Below are positions 12,848-16,767 of a stretch of DNA of 64,000 nt, in pieces. The position numbers and the translations under genes were made by a program. The stretch is from the NCBI GenBank assembly GCA_937936355.1, contig CALDDM010000002.1, positions 17,156-81,155 of the forward strand. The letters run 5' to 3'. This DNA comes from Minisyncoccota bacterium (GTDB taxonomy: Bacteria; Patescibacteriota; Minisyncoccia; Moranbacterales; GCA-2747515). Position 1 is the stretch's first letter. Each line of letters opens with the position of its first letter. The notes below the pieces were generated by a model. The model saw only the letters and a program-made list of their open reading frames with translations. It had not been told where the DNA came from and searched no databases.

Positions 12848-12952
12848 TTCTGACTGGTGTTATTATTTTAAATCGCATTCGCTTCACCAAGGATAGCATA
12901 TGTCGTGCTTACATTGTTCTAGAAATGATGCTTGCAGATTAGGACTTTAAGC

Positions 12953-12992
12953 TGAAAAACATCCCCGCAATAAGGGATGTTTAAAAATTTTT
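12953..12992 (-). terminator. Putative terminator after cassette gene F
   Basis: aacatccccgcaataagggatgtt hairpin with T-rich flank. Confidence 0.4.
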
Positions 12993-13060
12993 GTTGATCT
13001 TGGTAGTTGAAACGTAGATTTATAGCTTTGAAAAAATGAGCATAAATACTAAGTAGATTT

Positions 13061-13417
13061 CTATATGCAGTCTGCCACAGGGTGACATGCACCCTCACCT
13101 CTTATAATTTCTACCCAACATTCGCACTCTTCTTTTGGCAGAAGACTTGCTTCTTGCCTCTCAGCTTGAGATGGTGCAGGTGGAAAATGCTCTTGGTAGT
13201 CTTCTGTTACCTCAACAGGCAACATGTTATCCTCTACAGTGTCAGTGATTTCTTCATCTGTGTTTAGAACACCTCTTTCAGTAGAGCTTTTTATTTGTAC
13301 AGTAGGCATTACTTGTTCTTCTGCGGCGTAGCTGTTAAAGACAAAGGCCATACCAATACATGCCGCTACAAGGGCTAAGATTGCTATGGCAAAGTTTGAA
13401 TCAATGTTGTTTTTCAT
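13061..13417 (-). CDS. Cassette gene F: small secreted protein of the MKNNIDSNFAIAILALVAAC signal-peptide family
   Basis: N-terminal 25 aa nearly identical to 13639..14262 and to the disrupted N-terminus of the 15766..16491 ORF; signal peptide with a YAA|EE cleavage-like site. Confidence 0.5.
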   Translation of the reverse strand: MKNNIDSNFAIAILALVAACIGMAFVFNSYAAEEQVMPTVQIKSSTERGVLNTDEEITDTVEDNMLPVEVTEDYQEHFPPAPSQAERQEASLLPKEECECWVEIIRGEGACHPVADCI

Positions 13418-13440
13418 TTTTTCTTTTTGTATTTATATTC

Positions 13441-13570
13441 TTATTTTATCATGACTTTTCAATTCTCCTCACTGGTCACCGATTTTTACAAAACAAAAAC
13501 CGCTTTGTAGAGCGATTCTTGTAGTGCGATTATGATGAGCCAGACAGTGGATGACGTTAGAACTATGCTA
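13441..13570 (-). repeat. Inter-cassette conserved element copy R1 (32-nt motif + terminator hairpin + ggtgaccagtgaggagaa block)
   Basis: ttctcctcactggtcaccgatttttacaaaacaaaaaccgctttgtagagcgattcttgtagtg...tgatgagccagacagtggatgacgttagaact, shared with copies at 14289, 15200 and 16590. Confidence 0.8.
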
Positions 13571-13638
13571 CACAGTACCTGAGCTAAATAATTACAATTT
13601 CTAAGTATTTTGACTGACACTAGTTTGAATATACTCCT

Positions 13639-14262
13639 TTACTTACGCTGAATGGTTTCAGCAATTTTCTCAGCTTCATCCAAATATATGCCACCCGCGT
13701 ATAGCTCCACTTCAGCAATTCTTTCGCCTTCTCTAATTGCAATGAAGACATTCGACTGACCTCCAATTTCCAAATCTCGTTGCTCACGTAGCATATAAAC
13801 ATCTCCATTTCCATGTATTGGAATCCCTACTGGGCCATCAAGCTCTCTAATGATAAGTGGTGGAAATGAATCTGCATCAGTTTTTTCCAGTGAAAACTCT
13901 CTTGAAGTGCCGTAGTATTTCACGTCCCACCCTTTTGGAATAGTAAAGGAAAAATCCACATCTTCTGTAGTGTAGGCGATACGTTCTGTCGTTGAATTTA
14001 TGACTTGACCAGTAAGAACGATTCCTTTGCTTTGATTTTGATTCACCTCCCCAGCAAACACTGCTTTTTCCACTAGCCCCAAATTATTTTGCGTAGCGTC
14101 ACTTTCATCGATAGGGCGCTCTCTTTCGTATGCTTCTGTAGATGTGTTTTGTGATATATCCTCATCACCAGCAAAGTCGTATAGTACGAATGACAATCCC
14201 ACACAAGCAGCCACAAGTGCAAGGATTGCGATTGCGAAGTTTGAGTCAATATTATTTTTCAT
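13639..14262 (-). CDS. Cassette gene E: secreted protein, paralog family MKNNIDSNF (207 aa)
   Basis: Shares the N-terminal signal peptide with 13061..13417; divergent C-terminal domain. Confidence 0.55.
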   Translation of the reverse strand: MKNNIDSNFAIAILALVAACVGLSFVLYDFAGDEDISQNTSTEAYERERPIDESDATQNNLGLVEKAVFAGEVNQNQSKGIVLTGQVINSTTERIAYTTEDVDFSFTIPKGWDVKYYGTSREFSLEKTDADSFPPLIIRELDGPVGIPIHGNGDVYMLREQRDLEIGGQSNVFIAIREGERIAEVELYAGGIYLDEAEKIAETIQRK

Positions 14263-14288
14263 TTTTTTTTGTTTTTATACTTCTTACT

Positions 14289-14411
14289 TTATCATACTAT
14301 TCCGATTCTCCTCACTAGTCACCCATTTTGATAATACAAAAACCGCTCTGTAGAGCGATTCTTGTAGTGTGATTATGATGAGCCAGACAGTACATGACGT
14401 TATAACTATTC
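14289..14411 (-). repeat. Inter-cassette conserved element copy R2
   Basis: Near-identical to R1, R4 and R6 and carries the cgctctgtagagcg palindrome. Confidence 0.8.
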
Positions 14412-14698
14412 TAATAGCATGACGGGTCTATAAATATACAATCGAAGAGTGTATATACAGGAAGAAAGGGCGGTACAAGGGTGGCAACTGTTGCCAGTAG
14501 CAATCCAATATCAGTCTTATTGTCATAGATATTCTTTTGCAAATAGATTGCACCTCGCCAGCTGAGGAGCAGAAGAGTTGGAAGGTAGTATAACCAAGAC
14601 AAGTGCCCAGATTCCCTAATTGCATCAACCTTAAATACGAGAAAGAAAACTATTCCAACGATTAATGGTGCGACTACCTTAAAGGCATTTTTCATCAC
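14411..14698 (-). CDS. Cassette gene D: small polytopic membrane protein (~3 TM), a candidate immunity protein
   Basis: 95 aa with three hydrophobic helices; lies directly downstream of the Cys-rich secreted peptide gene. Confidence 0.4.
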   Translation of the reverse strand: MMKNAFKVVAPLIVGIVFFLVFKVDAIRESGHLSWLYYLPTLLLLSWRGAIYLQKNIYDNKTDIGLLLATVATLVPPFLPVYTLFDCIFIDPSCY

Positions 14699-14790
14699 GT
14701 ATATATCCCATATTTAATTGATTCAATTTTATCATAGTTCTGACCCGCACCTTCGGGTAGCAAAAAACACTCCATAAACACAGTGTTTTT

Positions 14791-15138: not shown

Positions 15139-15171
15139 GACTTTCTCCACTTTGGCTTTGTGTACTTTTCT

Positions 15172-15200
15172 ATAATAATACAAAAAGTCATTAATGTCAA
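15172..15200 (-). promoter_or_regulatory. Sigma70-like promoter (TTGACA-N17-TATTAT) for cassette gene C
   Basis: Minus strand reads ttgacattaatgactttttgtattattat; consensus -35 and near-consensus -10 with 17-bp spacing. Confidence 0.5.
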
Positions 15201-15324
15201 TCTATTTCGATTCTCCTCACTGGTCACCGATTTTTACAAAACAAAAACCGCTTTGTAGAGCGATTCTTGTAGTGTATTTATGATGAGCCAGATAGTACAT
15301 GACGTTAGAACTATTCTTGCTTTA
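15200..15324 (-). repeat. Inter-cassette conserved element copy R4
   Basis: attctcctcactggtcaccgatttttacaaaacaaaaaccgctttgtagagcgattcttgtagtgtatttatgatgagccagatagtacatgacgttagaactattc. Confidence 0.8.
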
Positions 15325-15606
15325 AGCCCTTGAGAATGTGATATGTTGATGCTCACCTAATATCTCTAGTACAACATCCAGAAATTCTTTGCCCAGTGCC
15401 TGATTTGCTTTCTCAAAATTTACCCAATCAATCTCAATCTCCTCTTCGTATTCGTGAATACCAAAACCGCCACGTAATATGTCATTGAAAGCATCTAAGT
15501 TATGCCCAGTCTTCCAATCGAGGTCTTTTGTCAGCACTCGGTCAATCTCATCATAAAATGACTCTTTGTCCAAGATATTGTTCCCGTCTATTTTTATCTT
15601 TTTCAT
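15322..15606 (-). CDS. Cassette gene B: barstar-like protein (barnase-family RNase inhibitor/immunity protein)
   Basis: MKKIKIDGNNILDKESFYDEIDRVL...HNLDAFNDILRGGFG...EIEIDWVNFEK fits the barstar family pattern (N-terminal I.G..I.S...FH..L, NLDAL.D.L); 94 aa. Confidence 0.55.
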   Translation of the reverse strand: MKKIKIDGNNILDKESFYDEIDRVLTKDLDWKTGHNLDAFNDILRGGFGIHEYEEEIEIDWVNFEKANQALGKEFLDVVLEILGEHQHITFSRA

Positions 15607-15706
15607 ACGTCTATACTACCATAGTTCTAACATCGTCCACTCACCAGGCTTAGGTTAGAACCAAAAACATGACTACTAGCGTGATGTTTTAAGGTGCACT
15701 TTTTTT

Positions 15707-15740
15707 GTGAGCCAGACAGTACATGACGTTAGAACTATTT
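15707..15740 (-). repeat. Partial copy R5 of the conserved element (32-nt motif)
   Basis: gtgagccagacagtacatgacgttagaactattt directly after the stop of 15766..16491. Confidence 0.7.
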
Positions 15741-15765
15741 TTGAAGCTTCGAGTGAAGTCGGCGC

Positions 15766-16491
15766 CTAAAAATTAGGCATCTGTGTAATCTTGTCCTCAA
15801 GGAGTCTGTTTGCTATATCCCTATCAATGAGTGTCACATCTTTTGATTTCATAGACACACCAAAGGTTGCTCTCTCATTAATGTATGCTTTTGTATATTC
15901 GGTAATACCATCATCCTCAAATTTACAAGTAACGCTTTTGTATAAAAAACCTTTTTCGTGTGTACTAAGCTCAGTAATATTACACACATCTTCCAAATAC
16001 GAGCATTCTTGTTCAGTTTTTTTATCAATACGCTGACAATGGTCATAGTGCCTCTTCGCCCATTGCTCAGCAGCCTCGTTGATAATGGCACTTACATCAT
16101 TGTTCCGCAATAATTCTGGTGATGGGTCATGAGGGCCAGAAGATATCGTCATAGTTACCTCTCCATCAAGCAACGTACCCCACTCTTTTTCTTGATTGAT
16201 ATTTGTTACATATCCACCCAAATTTGACCCACCATCTTCGACAAAGTACCAATCGCTAGGAATAGAAATATTTGAGCCATTTCTTGTTGTTATATTCTTG
16301 TAATCAATACTTTTATCAATTTGCGTTTCCTCAGTCTGATTTAGCAGCTCATTCTTATCAACACGGATAAGTATTTTGCTGTCTTGCACATCTTCTGGAA
16401 TTATTGCACTCAGACTACTTGCATCATTCGGCTGTTTCTTTTGTATATCAATGACAGGTTGTTGCGTAAGATTTTCGCTAAGCGAATTCAT
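15766..16491 (-). CDS. Cassette gene A: secreted paralog whose MKNNIDSNF-type signal peptide is encoded upstream but out of frame (start region disrupted)
   Basis: Minus strand 16492-16575 encodes ...KNHIDSNFAIAILALVAACIGFAFWFN in frame with the ORF, but the only ATG (16575 region) is +2 out of frame within atgaaaaaataaaaaat. Confidence 0.5.
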   Translation of the reverse strand: MNSLSENLTQQPVIDIQKKQPNDASSLSAIIPEDVQDSKILIRVDKNELLNQTEETQIDKSIDYKNITTRNGSNISIPSDWYFVEDGGSNLGGYVTNINQEKEWGTLLDGEVTMTISSGPHDPSPELLRNNDVSAIINEAAEQWAKRHYDHCQRIDKKTEQECSYLEDVCNITELSTHEKGFLYKSVTCKFEDDGITEYTKAYINERATFGVSMKSKDVTLIDRDIANRLLEDKITQMPNF

Positions 16492-16589
16492 GTTAAACCA
16501 AAAAGCAAACCCTATACATGCCGCTACAAGGGCTAGGATTGCAATAGCAAAGTTTGAGTCGATATGATTTTTTATTTTTTCATTTTGTT

Positions 16590-16695
16590 TTTATTATTCT
16601 TATTTTATCATACTATTTTGACTCTCCTCACTAATCATCTCTTTTGCAAAACAAAAACCGCTCTGTTGAGCGATTCTTGTAGTGTATTTATGATG
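16590..16695 (-). repeat. Conserved element copy R6, the native downstream flank of tRNA-Gly and the apparent progenitor of R1-R5
   Basis: ttttgactctcctcactaatcatctcttttgcaaaacaaaaaccgctctgttgagcgattcttgtagtgtatttatgatgagc runs directly into the tRNA-Gly 3' end (caagtgagcggaatcgaacc). Confidence 0.8.
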
Positions 16696-16767
16696 AGCAA
16701 GTGAGCGGAATCGAACCGCCATCTCTACCTTGGCAAGGTGGTGTAATAACCATTATACGACACCTGC
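16696..16767 (-). tRNA. tRNA-Gly (anticodon GCC)
   Basis: Manual fold: acceptor gcaggtg/cacttgc, T-arm gcgg-ttcgatt-ccgc, anticodon loop ttGCCaa; no encoded CCA. Confidence 0.7.

What the first reader, a model, noticed from the sequence alone, without database searches (positions are those of the whole stretch)
12900..16767. tRNA-Gly-anchored tandem cassette array: small secreted/immunity-type genes separated by a conserved inter-cassette element
Six small genes lie in a row on the minus strand, immediately downstream of the tRNA-Gly 3' end. They are three secreted paralogs sharing the signal peptide MKNNIDSNFAIAILALVAAC, a barstar-like protein, a Cys-rich secreted peptide, and a small 3-TM protein. 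Each is followed by the same ~110-130-bp element. The copy nearest the tRNA (16590-16695) is the native downstream flank of tRNA-Gly. The other copies reproduce this flank but replace the tRNA 3' end with a conserved 32-nt motif, AATAGTTCTAACGTCATGTACTGTCTGGCTCA in the minus orientation, which matches the tRNA only over the last ~8 nt (c.tgGCTCA|TCAT). This architecture resembles either serial site-specific insertion of gene cassettes at a tRNA att site, or an integron-like or unequal-crossover expansion using the repeated flank. The payload has a diversifying toxin/immunity or surface-protein flavour.
Basis: seen in the sequence. Interest (0 to 1): 0.85.

Follow-up and report, generated by a model that had tools for sequence, protein, structure and literature searches.

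The report
Gene-cassette array anchored at tRNA-Gly
Downstream of a tRNA-Gly gene in an uncultivated CPR bacterium lies a row of small self-contained gene cassettes, each ending in the same 31-base site; related genomes carry completely different cassettes at the same spot, so this looks like an integron-like gene-capture hotspot whose recombinase is unidentified.

Summary
On the minus strand, tRNA-Gly(GCC) (16695-16767) is followed by six small genes. Five are followed by a near-invariant 31-nt site, here called M (ATAGTTCTAACGTCATGTACTGTCTGGCTCA). M shares only its last 8 nt (CTNGCTCA) with the tRNA-Gly 3' end. After that 8-mer comes a terminator hairpin, an inverted arm and a promoter-like -10.

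Six further related genomes (one represented only by the far end of its array) carry the same M site at the same locus, with entirely different cargo: barstar, SUKH_5, pentapeptide, glyoxalase and many unknowns. One unit follows M in one genome and the tRNA in another, with the junction exactly after GCTCA.

The best reading is serial site-specific insertion of promoter-bearing cassettes {flank-gene-M} at the tRNA-Gly 3' end. The last gene, A3, which has no M, would be the native neighbour.

It is integron-like in logic but fails integron membership:
- there is no IntI;
- M is conserved in sequence rather than structure;
- the hairpin is not general;
- cassettes have their own promoters and terminators.

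The only recombinase in the window is a conserved, housekeeping-type Xer gene 5 kb away, so the enzyme is unknown. I rate it a new variant of a known kind, of moderate to high interest. A structured ~90-nt element that copies tRNA 3' ends was also noticed.

The parts
16695..16767 (-). tRNA-Gly(GCC). Its 3' 22 nt (16694-16715, TTCGATTCCGCTCACTTGCTCA) act as the array's anchor, the attB-like left half. The insertion point is directly after GCTCA, at 16694|16693.
   Evidence: ARAGORN; Rfam tRNA 54.7 bits; junction table; coordinates.
16613..16693 (-). Junction 1, flank type A. It contains an A-run, a terminator hairpin (16659-16672), a T-run, and a right arm (16613-16637, TGATTAGTGAGGAGAGTCAAAATAG) that is an inverted copy of the tRNA-Gly 3' end. 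A -10-like TATGATAAAAT follows at 16602-16612.
   Evidence: The reverse-strand self-hit of the junction model (E=3.6e-7) shows the palindrome.
15766..16583 (-). Cassette gene A1, a paralog of the signal-anchor family. Its start is disrupted: ATG AAA AAA TAA at 16583, and the intact ORF runs only from the internal ATG at 16491 (241 aa). It is probably a pseudogene or an anchor-less form.
15708..15738 (-). M site copy 1 (31 nt, 0 mismatches to the consensus).
15621..15707 (-). Junction 2, flank type C. It has a terminator-like hairpin and a right arm (15621-15652) that is a full-length inverted copy of M. This is the 'cognate' M/inverted-M palindrome, read here as attP-like.
   Evidence: Inverted repeats I1, I3 and I5; 14-bp outer stem; 17/22 complementarity against a shuffle maximum of 16.
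15322..15606 (-). Cassette gene for a barstar-family protein (94 aa). It is an orphan: no barnase-like partner is nearby.
   Evidence: Pfam PF01337, E=5.1e-12.
15284..15314 (-). M site copy 2 (1 mismatch).
15172..15283 (-). Junction 3, flank type A: terminator hairpin 15249-15262 and right arm 15202-15226. A TTGACA-17-TATTAT promoter-like site follows at 15200-15172.
   Evidence: (11/12 promoter match).
14893..15144 (-). Cassette gene for an 83-aa protein with a signal peptide and 2 Cys. It has its own strong terminator hairpin (14855-14886) upstream of the next M site.
   Evidence: No Pfam hit.
14795..14825 (-). M site copy 3 (2 mismatches, both in the first 3 positions).
14726..14794 (-). 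Junction 4, flank type D. It has its own terminator hairpin and a right arm (GGGTCAGAACTAT) that is a partial inverted copy of the start of M, followed by the -10-like TGATAAAAT.
   Evidence: Inverted repeat I11; fold z=-3.2.
14411..14698 (-). Cassette gene for a 95-aa protein with three hydrophobic segments. Its stop codon abuts M copy 4.
   Evidence: No Pfam hit.
14379..14409 (-). M site copy 4 (1 mismatch).
14297..14378 (-). Junction 5, flank type A: hairpin 14344-14357 and right arm 14297-14321. It is followed by the -10-like TATGATAAAG and the 5'UTR typical of the paralog family.
13639..14262 (-). Cassette gene A2 (207 aa), a member of the signal-anchor family.
13536..13566 (-). M site copy 5 (2 mismatches, at the variable positions 17-18).
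13455..13535 (-). Junction 6, flank type A: hairpin 13501-13514 and right arm 13455-13478. In the model this is the original downstream flank of tRNA-Gly (B').
13061..13417 (-). Gene A3 (118 aa), a signal-anchor family member. No M site follows it. It is interpreted as the native neighbour of tRNA-Gly rather than an inserted cassette. A terminator lies at 12957-12982.
   Evidence: No junction or M hit distal to 13440.

Best explanation
This is an accretion hotspot for small, self-contained gene cassettes at the 3' end of tRNA-Gly(GCC).

Each inserted unit has three parts:
1. a flank, made of an A-run, an intrinsic-terminator hairpin, a T-run and an inverted arm;
2. its own promoter, 5'UTR and one gene (occasionally two);
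3. the 31-nt M site.

M ends in CTGGCTCA, the same 8-mer that ends the tRNA-Gly gene (CT[T/C]GCTCA).

Proposed mechanism. A circular cassette whose joint is M|flank (attP-like) recombines with any site of the form ...CTNGCTCA|flank. That target can be the tRNA end (attB-like) or an M already in the array. The exchange falls within or directly after the shared 8-mer. New cassettes therefore enter next to the tRNA or between older ones, all co-directional, and the tRNA stays intact.

In the window this gives five inserted cassettes: A1, barstar, the 83-aa secreted protein, the 3-TM protein and A2. After them comes the native flank and its gene, A3.

Shown: the anatomy, the restriction to one locus, the complete turnover of cargo between genomes, the precise GCTCA| breakpoints, and the four predicted site combinations.

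Inferred: the circular intermediate and the recombinase. No dedicated enzyme is encoded in any array. It must act in trans. The conserved single Xer-type tyrosine recombinase 5 kb away is a candidate but nothing more.
For: 1. M is real and extremely conserved. There are 5 copies in the window against 0 expected. Across 7 genomes there are 17 good direct copies, with positions 4-31 almost invariant. The orthologous proteins of these genomes are only 56-64% identical (P0003, P0005-P0007).

2. It is restricted to one locus. A junction HMM hits only the array in the 64-kb window. Whole-collection scans find M only at this tRNA-Gly locus or in what appears to be the distal end of such an array (L004). 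There is no match in viral contigs, plasmids or phages.

3. Cargo turns over completely. No cassette body is shared at DNA level or protein level, except the N-terminal anchor of one paralog family.

4. The breakpoint is precise. The unit beginning AAATAGTAAAAGC... follows M in L001 and follows tRNA-Gly in L006. Homology starts right after GCTCA.

5. All four site combinations expected from attB x attP exist:
- tRNA-Gly|A flank with an inverted tRNA end (window, L003, L005);
- M|C flank with an inverted M (window J2; L002 carries a diverged copy);
- tRNA-Gly|C flank (L008 J1);
- M|A flank (common).

6. The number of M copies (5) equals the number of genes minus one, and the last gene has no M, as expected if A3 is the native neighbour. 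In L001 and L008 the arrays end in M plus a remnant A flank.

7. M probably acts at the DNA level. Some cassettes have their own terminator upstream of M. In the long L002/L003 array, M copies far from the tRNA tend to be the more degenerate: mismatches run 2, 1, then 3, 8, 9 and worse, though one copy in the middle is already badly diverged.

8. The array has lower GC, 0.38 against 0.44.

9. A second kind of unit at these tRNAs, the GGGGTCGGG element, is flanked by true ~20-nt direct repeats of the tRNA 3' end. This shows that tRNA-3'-end-directed insertion operates in this lineage.
Against: - No integrase, transposase or HUH gene lies in or next to any of the seven arrays, apart from an unrelated IS in L002 and an HNH fragment in L003.
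- The only recombinase near the array is a Xer-type gene that belongs to conserved core synteny, even in an outgroup lacking this L19/tRNA arrangement.
- Upstream of the 8-mer, M and the tRNA-Gly end are not similar. One recombinase would have to accept two different left half-sites.
- M has no dyad symmetry, unlike ordinary tyrosine-recombinase core sites.
- Flank type and downstream gene are not strictly linked. A second breakpoint class lies at the end of the right arm, and the simple model does not predict it.
- No two closely related strains with different cassette sets were found, and no circular joint was observed. Mobility is therefore inferred from comparisons between species.
- A flanks are somewhat more alike within a genome (88-94%) than between genomes (73-89%), which also fits local duplication or gene conversion.
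Confidence: 0.55

Rival explanations
1. There is no dedicated recombination system. A tRNA-Gly terminator/promoter module was duplicated in tandem together with genes by unequal crossing-over. It is kept similar by gene conversion and by selection on regulatory function. M would be a conserved regulatory site (for a DNA- or RNA-binding protein) shared by all genes of the island. Cargo differences would arise by ordinary homologous recombination within the conserved junctions after DNA uptake.
For: - The junction contains a bidirectional terminator and promoter-like elements.
- A flanks are more similar within a genome than between genomes.
- The paralog family also exists outside arrays, with the same conserved 5'UTR and N-terminus but without M.
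- No recombinase is associated with the arrays.
- A reversed gene in L006 replaces a paralog exactly at its start codon, an illegitimate event rather than a site-specific one.
Against: - The tRNA/M exchange point is exact to the base at GCTCA|, with unrelated sequence on the left.
- M is independent of the flank type that follows it.
- M lies downstream of cassette-internal terminators and decays in distal copies.
- Cargo turnover is total, while junctions remain 73-100% conserved across genera.
Confidence: 0.2
2. It is a true integron-type system, a CALIN. The whole junction (M, centre and inverted arm) would be an attC-like site that folds as single-stranded DNA and is recombined by an IntI-like enzyme encoded elsewhere, with the tRNA-Gly region serving as attI.
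For: - The array is co-directional, made of mostly single-gene cassettes of roughly 0.4-1 kb.
- Junctions are 110-130 bp.
- In type C junctions the ends read TTCTAAC...GTTAGAA, a 6/7 match to the attC R''/R' boxes RYYYAAC/GTTRRRY (recalled consensus), with a 14-bp outer stem.
- The genes are flanked by GTTAGAAC on the left and GTTCTAAC on the right, as in integron cassettes.
- CALINs without a nearby intI are common (PMC4889954).
- The nearby Xer-like protein passes the NCBIfam model named 'site-specific tyrosine recombinase/integron integrase' (NF040815, 233.6 > 220).
Against: - Complementarity between M and the right arm is at chance level in 12 of the 16 M junctions tested.
- M is conserved in sequence, whereas attC sites are conserved in structure.
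- The flank next to the tRNA varies between genomes (types A, B, C, E). This places the crossover at GCTCA|, the inner end of the left arm, not at the R' box.
- Cassettes carry their own terminators and promoters, whereas integron cassettes rarely contain promoters (PMC4889954).
- Integron-integrase models score below their cut-offs (TIGR02249: 135 < 265; NF011946: 81 < 435).
- In that survey, very small genomes lacked complete integrons.
Confidence: 0.1
3. The cassettes are non-autonomous transposon-like units. One option is mobile insertion cassettes or MITEs bounded by 31-bp terminal inverted repeats beginning TG and ending CA. The other is single-strand HUH-type elements that insert 3' of a fixed pentanucleotide. 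Either would be mobilised by a transposase encoded elsewhere.
For: - Genes such as barstar are flanked by inverted copies of M whose outer ends read TAAGCC.../...GGCTCA.
- Insertion is always 3' of GCTCA, and every unit ends in GCTCA. This resembles the IS200/IS605 rule of inserting 3' of a fixed short target (recalled).
- The orientation is strictly co-directional.
Against: - There are no target-site duplications.
- The elements are not dispersed.
- Most right arms are copies of the tRNA end rather than of M.
- No DDE or HUH transposase lies in the window. The only DDE gene seen is an ordinary IS inside L002.
- There is no conserved subterminal hairpin next to M.
Confidence: 0.07

Closest known systems
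Integrons and CALIN arrays (attC cassette arrays)
   Same: Both are locus-restricted, co-directional arrays of small, mostly single-gene cassettes with unrelated and largely unknown cargo. Each cassette ends in a repeated site. Content turns over completely between relatives. Junctions are 110-130 bp and palindromic in some copies. As in CALINs, no integrase is adjacent.
   Different: - There is no IntI.
- The repeated site is conserved in sequence (28 of 31 positions nearly invariant) rather than in structure.
- The hairpin is not general.
- The crossover maps to the inner end of the left arm (GCTCA|), not to R'.
- Every cassette has its own terminator and promoter-like region.
- The anchor is a tRNA gene end rather than attI.
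- The host is a small-genome CPR bacterium.
Tandem accretion of integrase-less elements at tRNA genes (CIME/ICE accretion, genomic islets at tRNA 3' ends)
   Same: Insertion occurs at the 3' end of a tRNA gene, and the tRNA stays intact. Units accumulate in tandem, separated by att-like repeats. The units lack their own integrase and must be mobilised in trans (recalled knowledge).
   Different: The units are single genes of 0.4-0.9 kb rather than kilobase-scale islands. The repeat shares only 8 nt with the tRNA rather than the usual 15-60 nt. No integrase-bearing element is present in any of the seven arrays.
rAID-1 recombinase-associated immunity-gene arrays of Bacteroidales (Ross et al., bioRxiv 10.1101/471110)
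   Same: Both are co-directional, low-GC arrays with repetitive intergenic sequences 'reminiscent of integrons'. Cargo includes orphan immunity genes; here these are barstar, SUKH_5 and a pentapeptide protein. A XerD-family recombinase is in the vicinity.
   Different: In rAID-1 the recombinase gene lies immediately 5' of the array and is specific to it. Here the Xer gene is 5 kb away, separated from the array by core genes, and conserved in relatives irrespective of the array. The tRNA anchor, the M site and the phylum are also different.
Xer-exploiting elements (IMEX) and pdif modules of Acinetobacter plasmids
   Same: Cargo modules lack a recombinase and are bounded by ~30-bp sites, partly in alternating orientation. 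They are assumed to use a host recombinase (recalled knowledge).
   Different: M has no two-arm dyad symmetry. The locus is not at a replication terminus, since GC skew is monotonic across it. The centres between inverted sites are linked to their right arm, so the strict pdif-module pattern is not seen.

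Membership tests
Integron / CALIN | Integron integrase (IntI, a tyrosine recombinase with an extra ~35-residue domain) adjacent to the array. This is not required for a CALIN. | tested here: not met
   The only tyrosine recombinase in 64 kb is Xer-like. 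TIGR02249 scores 135 bits against a cut-off of 265, and NF011946 scores 81 against 435. The gene belongs to core synteny.
Integron / CALIN | attC sites: imperfect palindromes (R''-L''...L'-R') conserved in structure rather than sequence. | tested here: not met
   Left/right arm complementarity is above shuffles only in cognate junctions. In 12 of 16 M junctions it is 11-12 of 22, which is chance level. M is nearly invariant in sequence. The attC covariance model itself could not be run.
Integron / CALIN | Cassettes mostly promoterless, expressed from a common Pc promoter. | tested here: not met
   Each junction carries a terminator hairpin and a -10 or -35/-10-like site. This is a consensus prediction only; no expression data exist.
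Integron / CALIN | Co-directional array of small cassettes with variable content between relatives. | tested here: met
tRNA-targeting integrative elements / tandem accretion | Insertion at the 3' end of a tRNA gene that leaves the tRNA intact. | tested here: met
   tRNA-Gly is intact in all six loci that include it. The junction falls directly after GCTCA.
tRNA-targeting integrative elements / tandem accretion | Direct repeat of the tRNA 3' segment (the attL/attR identity block) bounding each unit. | tested here: inconclusive
   For gene cassettes only 8 nt (CTNGCTCA) are shared, and the rest of M is unrelated to the tRNA. For the GGGGTCGGG units a true ~20-nt repeat is present.
tRNA-targeting integrative elements / tandem accretion | A cognate integrase encoded by at least one element of the array. 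| tested here: not met
   None in the seven arrays.
rAID-1 (Bacteroidales) | XerD-like recombinase gene immediately 5' of a co-directional, low-GC gene array (criteria in 10.1101/471110). | tested here: not met
   The Xer-like gene at 21822-22838 (+) is separated from the array by the tRNA cluster, rplS and three other genes, and lies on the opposite strand. Low GC and co-directionality are met.
Xer/dif-type sites (IMEX, pdif modules) | A 28-31-bp site with two inverted ~11-bp arms around a 6-8-bp (up to 11-bp) centre. | tested here: not met
   The best dyad in M is 5/9. 82% of shuffles do as well or better.
MITE / REP / Correia-like elements | Many dispersed copies across the genome. | tested here: not met
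   Copies occur only in the array within the 64-kb window. In the two species-representative MAGs found by the scan of public genomes, M occurs only in the tRNA-Gly array. Complete genomes were not available.

The most novel reading that the evidence does not exclude
A previously undescribed cassette-capture system of CPR bacteria. It would use the 3' end of tRNA-Gly as its docking site and a 31-nt asymmetric site (M) as the cassette-borne partner. It would carry promoter- and terminator-equipped cassettes and be driven by a recombinase not encoded at the locus, possibly the cell's single Xer enzyme. A related machinery might also maintain the structured GGGGTCGGG units that copy the 3' ends of five different tRNAs. 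If so, this would be a functional analogue of integrons that arose independently in ultra-small genomes.
Probability: 0.3. Interest if true: 0.8.

Novelty: new variant of a known kind. Interest (0 to 1): 0.62.

Why it matters
CPR/Patescibacteria have tiny genomes, and little is known about how they gain and exchange accessory genes. In the integron survey cited here, very small genomes lacked complete integrons.

This locus is a compact, sharply defined place where cargo is exchanged completely between related species. The cargo includes orphan immunity-type proteins (barstar, SUKH, pentapeptide, glyoxalase/bleomycin-type) and many small secreted or membrane proteins. The junctions stay as conserved as tRNAs.

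If a site-specific mechanism is confirmed, three things would follow:
- a new recombination site and enzyme pair;
- a handle for tracking strain-level variation in uncultivated episymbionts;
- a natural docking site (tRNA-Gly|GCTCA) that could be used for genetic tools in this group.

If instead it is only a conserved regulatory module, it is still a good marker of a hypervariable surface and immunity island.

Tried and rejected
- **Known RNA families.** Rfam gave nothing for M, the junction or the GGGGTCGGG element at gathering thresholds or at E<=5.
- **M as a diverged tRNA 3' half.** Beyond the last 8 nt it is no more similar to the tRNA-Gly end than shuffles. By eye there is no T-arm, and the bases before M are variable.
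- **M as a dif-like two-arm site.** It has no dyad symmetry.
- **M plus flank as coding sequence.** ORFs of about 40 aa span it. However, the frame relative to the upstream gene is not fixed, and the variable positions 17, 18 and 22 give non-synonymous changes. Rejected.
- **A dedicated recombinase.** I scanned 46 ORFs of the window against Pfam, and one against NCBIfam only. Only the Xer-like gene turned up, and it proved to be core synteny.
- **Carriers of M.** Viral contigs, plasmids and phages gave no hits.
- **Closer strains.** I found only an identical short Logan contig. Contigs of several relatives break at the tRNA cluster.
- **More arrays via the paralog family.** The extra members sit outside arrays, without M.
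- **Extending the window.** Only a 10-kb Logan contig was returned.
- **Literature.** Searches found no description of such arrays in CPR.
- **pdif-module model.** Breakpoints would fall on both sides of each centre, but centres are strictly linked to their right arm.

Full report
**1. What is in the window**

On the minus strand a tRNA cluster, Leu(GAG)-Val(TAC)-Phe-Met-Gly(GCC), ends with tRNA-Gly at 16695-16767. Six co-directional small ORFs follow, down to 13061:
- A1, 15766-16491, with upstream remnants reaching 16583;
- a barstar-family protein, 15322-15606 (PF01337, E=5e-12);
- an 83-aa secreted protein, 14893-15144;
- a 95-aa protein with three hydrophobic segments, 14411-14698;
- A2, 13639-14262;
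- A3, 13061-13417.

A2 and A3 share the N-terminus MKNNIDSNFAIAILALVAAC. A1 carries the same sequence in its open frame, but its start is broken: ATG AAA AAA TAA, with about 8 extra bases.

The region has lower GC, 0.38 against about 0.44. A Logan contig from an independent assembly is 100% identical over 13497-15239, so the gene order is not an assembly artefact.

**2. The repeat**

A 31-nt site, here called M (ATAGTTCTAACGTCATGTACTGTCTGGCTCA), follows five of the six genes with 0-2 mismatches. None is expected by chance. No M follows A3.

M shares only its last 8 nt with the end of the tRNA-Gly gene: CTGGCTCA against CTTGCTCA. The remaining 23 nt are no more similar to the tRNA than shuffles, and M has no internal dyad symmetry.

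Directly after GCTCA comes a 'flank' with three parts:
- an A-run, a terminator hairpin and a T-run;
- an inverted arm beginning TGA(G)CNAG;
- a promoter-like element, either the extended -10-like TGATAAAAT or TTGACA-17-TATTAT.

The flanks fall into types. Type A follows the tRNA and three M copies in the window. Its right arm, (T)GAC(C/T)AGTGAGGAGAATCGAA, is an inverted copy of the tRNA-Gly 3' end. Type C (junction 2) has a right arm that is a full-length inverted copy of M. Type D (junction 4) has a partial inverted copy of M.

The junction model hits nothing else in the 64-kb window.

**3. Related genomes**

Pattern scans of the genome and metagenome collections found M only in a handful of contigs:
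- two Candidatus Pacebacteria MAGs, L001 and L002/L003;
- three metagenome contigs, L004, L005 and L006.

A search with the neighbouring conserved 395-aa protein added L008 and showed the clade's synteny. More distant homologues in that search are labelled Candidatus Moraniibacteriota by their sources.

In five of these six genomes M sits in an array directly downstream of the same tRNA-Gly. In L004 only the far end of an array, abutting prfB, was fetched.

Across the 7 genomes there are 17 good direct copies of M, with positions 4-31 almost invariant. Variation is confined to positions 17, 18 and 22. This holds although the orthologous 395-aa proteins of these genomes are only 56-64% identical to the window's and flanking coding DNA is 67-77% identical. 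Type A flanks are 73-89% identical between genomes and 88-94% identical within the window.

No cassette body is shared between genomes at DNA level or protein level. Identified cargo is:
- SUKH_5 (E=7e-31) and a pentapeptide-repeat protein;
- glyoxalase/bleomycin-resistance type, FAD oxidoreductase, MBL-fold hydrolase, methyltransferase, a DUF4143 ATPase and an ordinary IS (rve);
- an HNH fragment;
- many proteins with no family hit.

Some cassettes hold two genes (L008 6269-7017; L002 3829-4740).

The signal-anchor family is tiny: 26 proteins in 5.8 billion. It also occurs outside arrays, with the same 5'UTR and N-terminus but no M. It is therefore one kind of cargo, not part of the machinery.

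**4. Where the exchanges happen**

The junction table covers 26 junctions. Three kinds of left partner precede GCTCA|:
- the tRNA-Gly end (7 junctions);
- M (16 junctions);
- short copies of the tRNA-Gly end (3 junctions).

Several flank types follow each of them. After tRNA-Gly the flank is type A in the window, L003 and L005, type B in L001, type C in L008 and type E in L006.

One comparison is decisive. The unit beginning AAATAGTAAAAGC(C/T)CTAGTT... follows M in L001 and follows tRNA-Gly in L006, with homology starting at the base after GCTCA. The tRNA end and M are therefore interchangeable left partners, and the exchange point lies in or at the end of the shared 8-mer.

Left/right arm complementarity exceeds shuffles only in 'cognate' junctions. 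These are tRNA-Gly with a flank bearing the inverted tRNA end (13-17 of 22) and M with the flank bearing inverted M (17 of 22). In M|A junctions it is at chance, 11-12 of 22.

This is the pattern expected from recombination between two palindromic parental sites:
- attB-like: tRNA-Gly|A;
- attP-like: M|C;
- attL-like hybrid: tRNA-Gly|C, seen in L008;
- attR-like hybrid: M|A, the commonest junction.

In the window this parses as five inserted cassettes {flank-gene-M} followed by the native flank and A3. That explains why the number of M copies is one fewer than the number of genes. L001 and L008 end in M plus a remnant A flank, which fits the same model.

**5. DNA-level or RNA-level function?**

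Several cassettes have a strong terminator of their own upstream of M (window 14855-14886; L005). M would then be poorly transcribed.

In the long L002/L003 array, the M copies near the tRNA are intact and the far ones tend to be more degenerate, though the trend is not monotonic. This fits a site needed for insertion rather than for expression.

ORFs spanning M were rejected as coding. The frame is not fixed, and the variable positions are non-synonymous. No Rfam family matches.

**6. The enzyme**

I scanned 46 ORFs of the window against Pfam, and the Xer-like protein against NCBIfam as well. The only recombinase is a Xer-type tyrosine recombinase at 21822-22838. It scores below the XerC/XerD and integron-integrase cut-offs and passes only the XerA-type model.

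It lies in a conserved gene order (M23 peptidase, Xer, then UvrD, UbiA and KsgA) in relatives. The same order occurs in an outgroup contig (L015) that lacks the L19/tRNA arrangement beside the query gene. It is most simply the housekeeping Xer.

None of the seven arrays encodes an integrase. M is absent from viral contigs, plasmids and phages. The recombinase therefore acts in trans and is unidentified. Exploitation of Xer is possible but untested, and M's lack of dyad symmetry argues against a classical dif-like site.

**7. Comparison with known systems**

In logic this is closest to integrons and CALINs, and to tandem accretion of integrase-less elements at tRNA genes. In cargo and appearance it is closest to the rAID-1 arrays of Bacteroidales (10.1101/471110).

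It fails the defining tests for integrons:
- no IntI;
- the site is conserved in sequence, not structure;
- the hairpin is not general;
- the crossover is not at R';
- cassettes are promoter-bearing.

It fails for rAID-1 because the recombinase is not adjacent. It fails for dif/pdif modules because there is no two-arm site. It fails for MITE/REP because it is not dispersed. I found no description of such arrays in CPR.

**8. Weak points**

Mobility is inferred from comparisons between species. No strain-level polymorphism and no circular joint was seen.

A second breakpoint class, at the end of the right arm, makes flank type partly independent of the downstream gene. The simple model does not explain this.

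Flanks are more alike within a genome than between genomes, and the gene replacement in L006 is illegitimate rather than site-specific. Ordinary recombination therefore also shapes the locus.

The duplication and regulatory-module rival keeps about 0.2 probability.

**9. Side observation**

A structured ~90-nt element beginning GGGGTCGGG sits after tRNA-Met (16797-16888) and after tRNA-Leu (17363-17458) in the window. Sixteen copies were found in 7 genomes, after tRNA-Leu, Val, Phe, Met or Gly, or inside arrays.

Each is preceded by an inverted copy of that tRNA's T-arm and followed by a direct ~20-nt copy of its 3' end (for example 16790-16809 = 16899-16918). It has two hairpins; 8 of the 17 predicted pairs, most of them in the second hairpin, show compensatory changes.

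By eye in the alignment, its subtypes follow tRNA identity across genomes, so it is probably old and functional. It has the same formal layout as a cassette (inverted arm, cargo, direct arm ending in CA|). It shows that tRNA-3'-end-directed duplication or insertion is a general feature of this lineage. What it does is unexplained.

**Verdict**

The feature is real and locus-specific. The best explanation is a site-specific cassette accretion hotspot at tRNA-Gly (confidence 0.55). It is a new variant of a known kind. Interest: 0.62.

Noticed in passing
window 16797-16888 (-) and 17363-17458 (-); also L001 1583-1677, 3914-4004, 4221-4317; L003 1627-1703, 1930-2021, 2196-2262; L005 44-126; L006 1319-1414, 4219-4309, 4914-5009, 6719-6814; L008 8993-9086; L012 273-359, 709-804: A structured ~90-nt element beginning GGGGTCGGG lies directly downstream of tRNA-Leu, Val, Phe, Met or Gly, or inside arrays. 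It is always preceded by an inverted copy of that tRNA's T-arm and followed by a direct ~20-nt copy of its 3' end. It has two conserved hairpins; 8 of the 17 predicted pairs, most of them in the second hairpin, show compensatory changes. There is no Rfam match and no match in viral contigs. Subtypes follow tRNA identity across genomes. Its function is unknown; it may be a tRNA-like RNA or a mini-cassette.
   Followed up: partly
window 16891-16921 (-): The junction between the end of tRNA-Met and the next element reads TTCAAATCCTG CCGGTCCCA CAGGATTTGAA. This is a perfect 11-bp inverted repeat around a 9-bp spacer (the acceptor 3' strand), with the geometry of a tyrosine-recombinase core site. 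In other genomes a hairpin is inserted between the two arms.
   Followed up: partly
window 21822-22838 (+): This is a Xer-type tyrosine recombinase. It passes only the XerA-type NCBIfam model. It lies in a conserved block (M23 peptidase, Xer, then UvrD, UbiA and KsgA) in relatives and in an outgroup contig. It is the only recombinase found in the window.
   Followed up: yes
window 16558-16583 (-): The start of paralog A1 reads ATGAAAAAATAAAAAATCATATCGAC, against ATGAAAAATAATATTGAC in A2. About 8 extra bases within A-runs break the frame. This could be a pseudogene, a sequencing error in a homopolymer, or phase-variable expression.
   Followed up: partly
window 55807-62708 (+): A type IV secretion-like gene cluster is present, with TrbL_3, PrgI, TraC-like and VirB4/TraG P-loop ATPase genes. 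It could be part of a conjugative or DNA-uptake apparatus relevant to cassette exchange.
   Followed up: no
window ~42000-43300: Gene orientation switches here: mostly minus strand to the left, plus strand to the right. Cumulative GC skew stops falling at the same place. This may be a replication origin about 26 kb from the array. The array itself shows no skew switch, so it is not at a terminus or dif position.
   Followed up: no
L006 7636-7670 and 9080-9300; L005 121-160; L008 6110-6150: Short GC-rich palindromic insertions (for example GTCACGTCACTCAGGAGTGACTGTG and CCTGCCTACCGGCAGGCAGG) interrupt M sites, flank hairpins and a copied tRNA 3' end. They look like a separate family of small hairpin insertions.
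   Followed up: no
L001 3276-3530 (-), L006 4446-4703 (+), L008 8071-8334 (-): A small GIY-YIG protein gene (84-87 aa) sits between tRNA-Met and tRNA-Gly in three relatives but not in the window. It is flanked by GC-rich repeats of the form CTTAGGCTGGCACGCC. It looks like an independent selfish insertion and does not correlate with the presence of arrays.
   Followed up: partly
L003 468-1181 (+): The first unit after tRNA-Gly in this genome holds reverse-oriented ORFs, including an HNH-nuclease motif split over two frames. L002 6728-7603 holds an rve-type IS transposase inside the array.
   Followed up: partly
L016 10001-10639, L017 7311-8060, L018 1602-2030: Members of the MKNNIDSNFAIAIL signal-anchor family also occur as single genes outside arrays. 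Their N-terminus is conserved at the DNA level (and, in L017, the 5'UTR), but they have no M site. The family has only 26 members in 5.8 billion proteins.
   Followed up: yes
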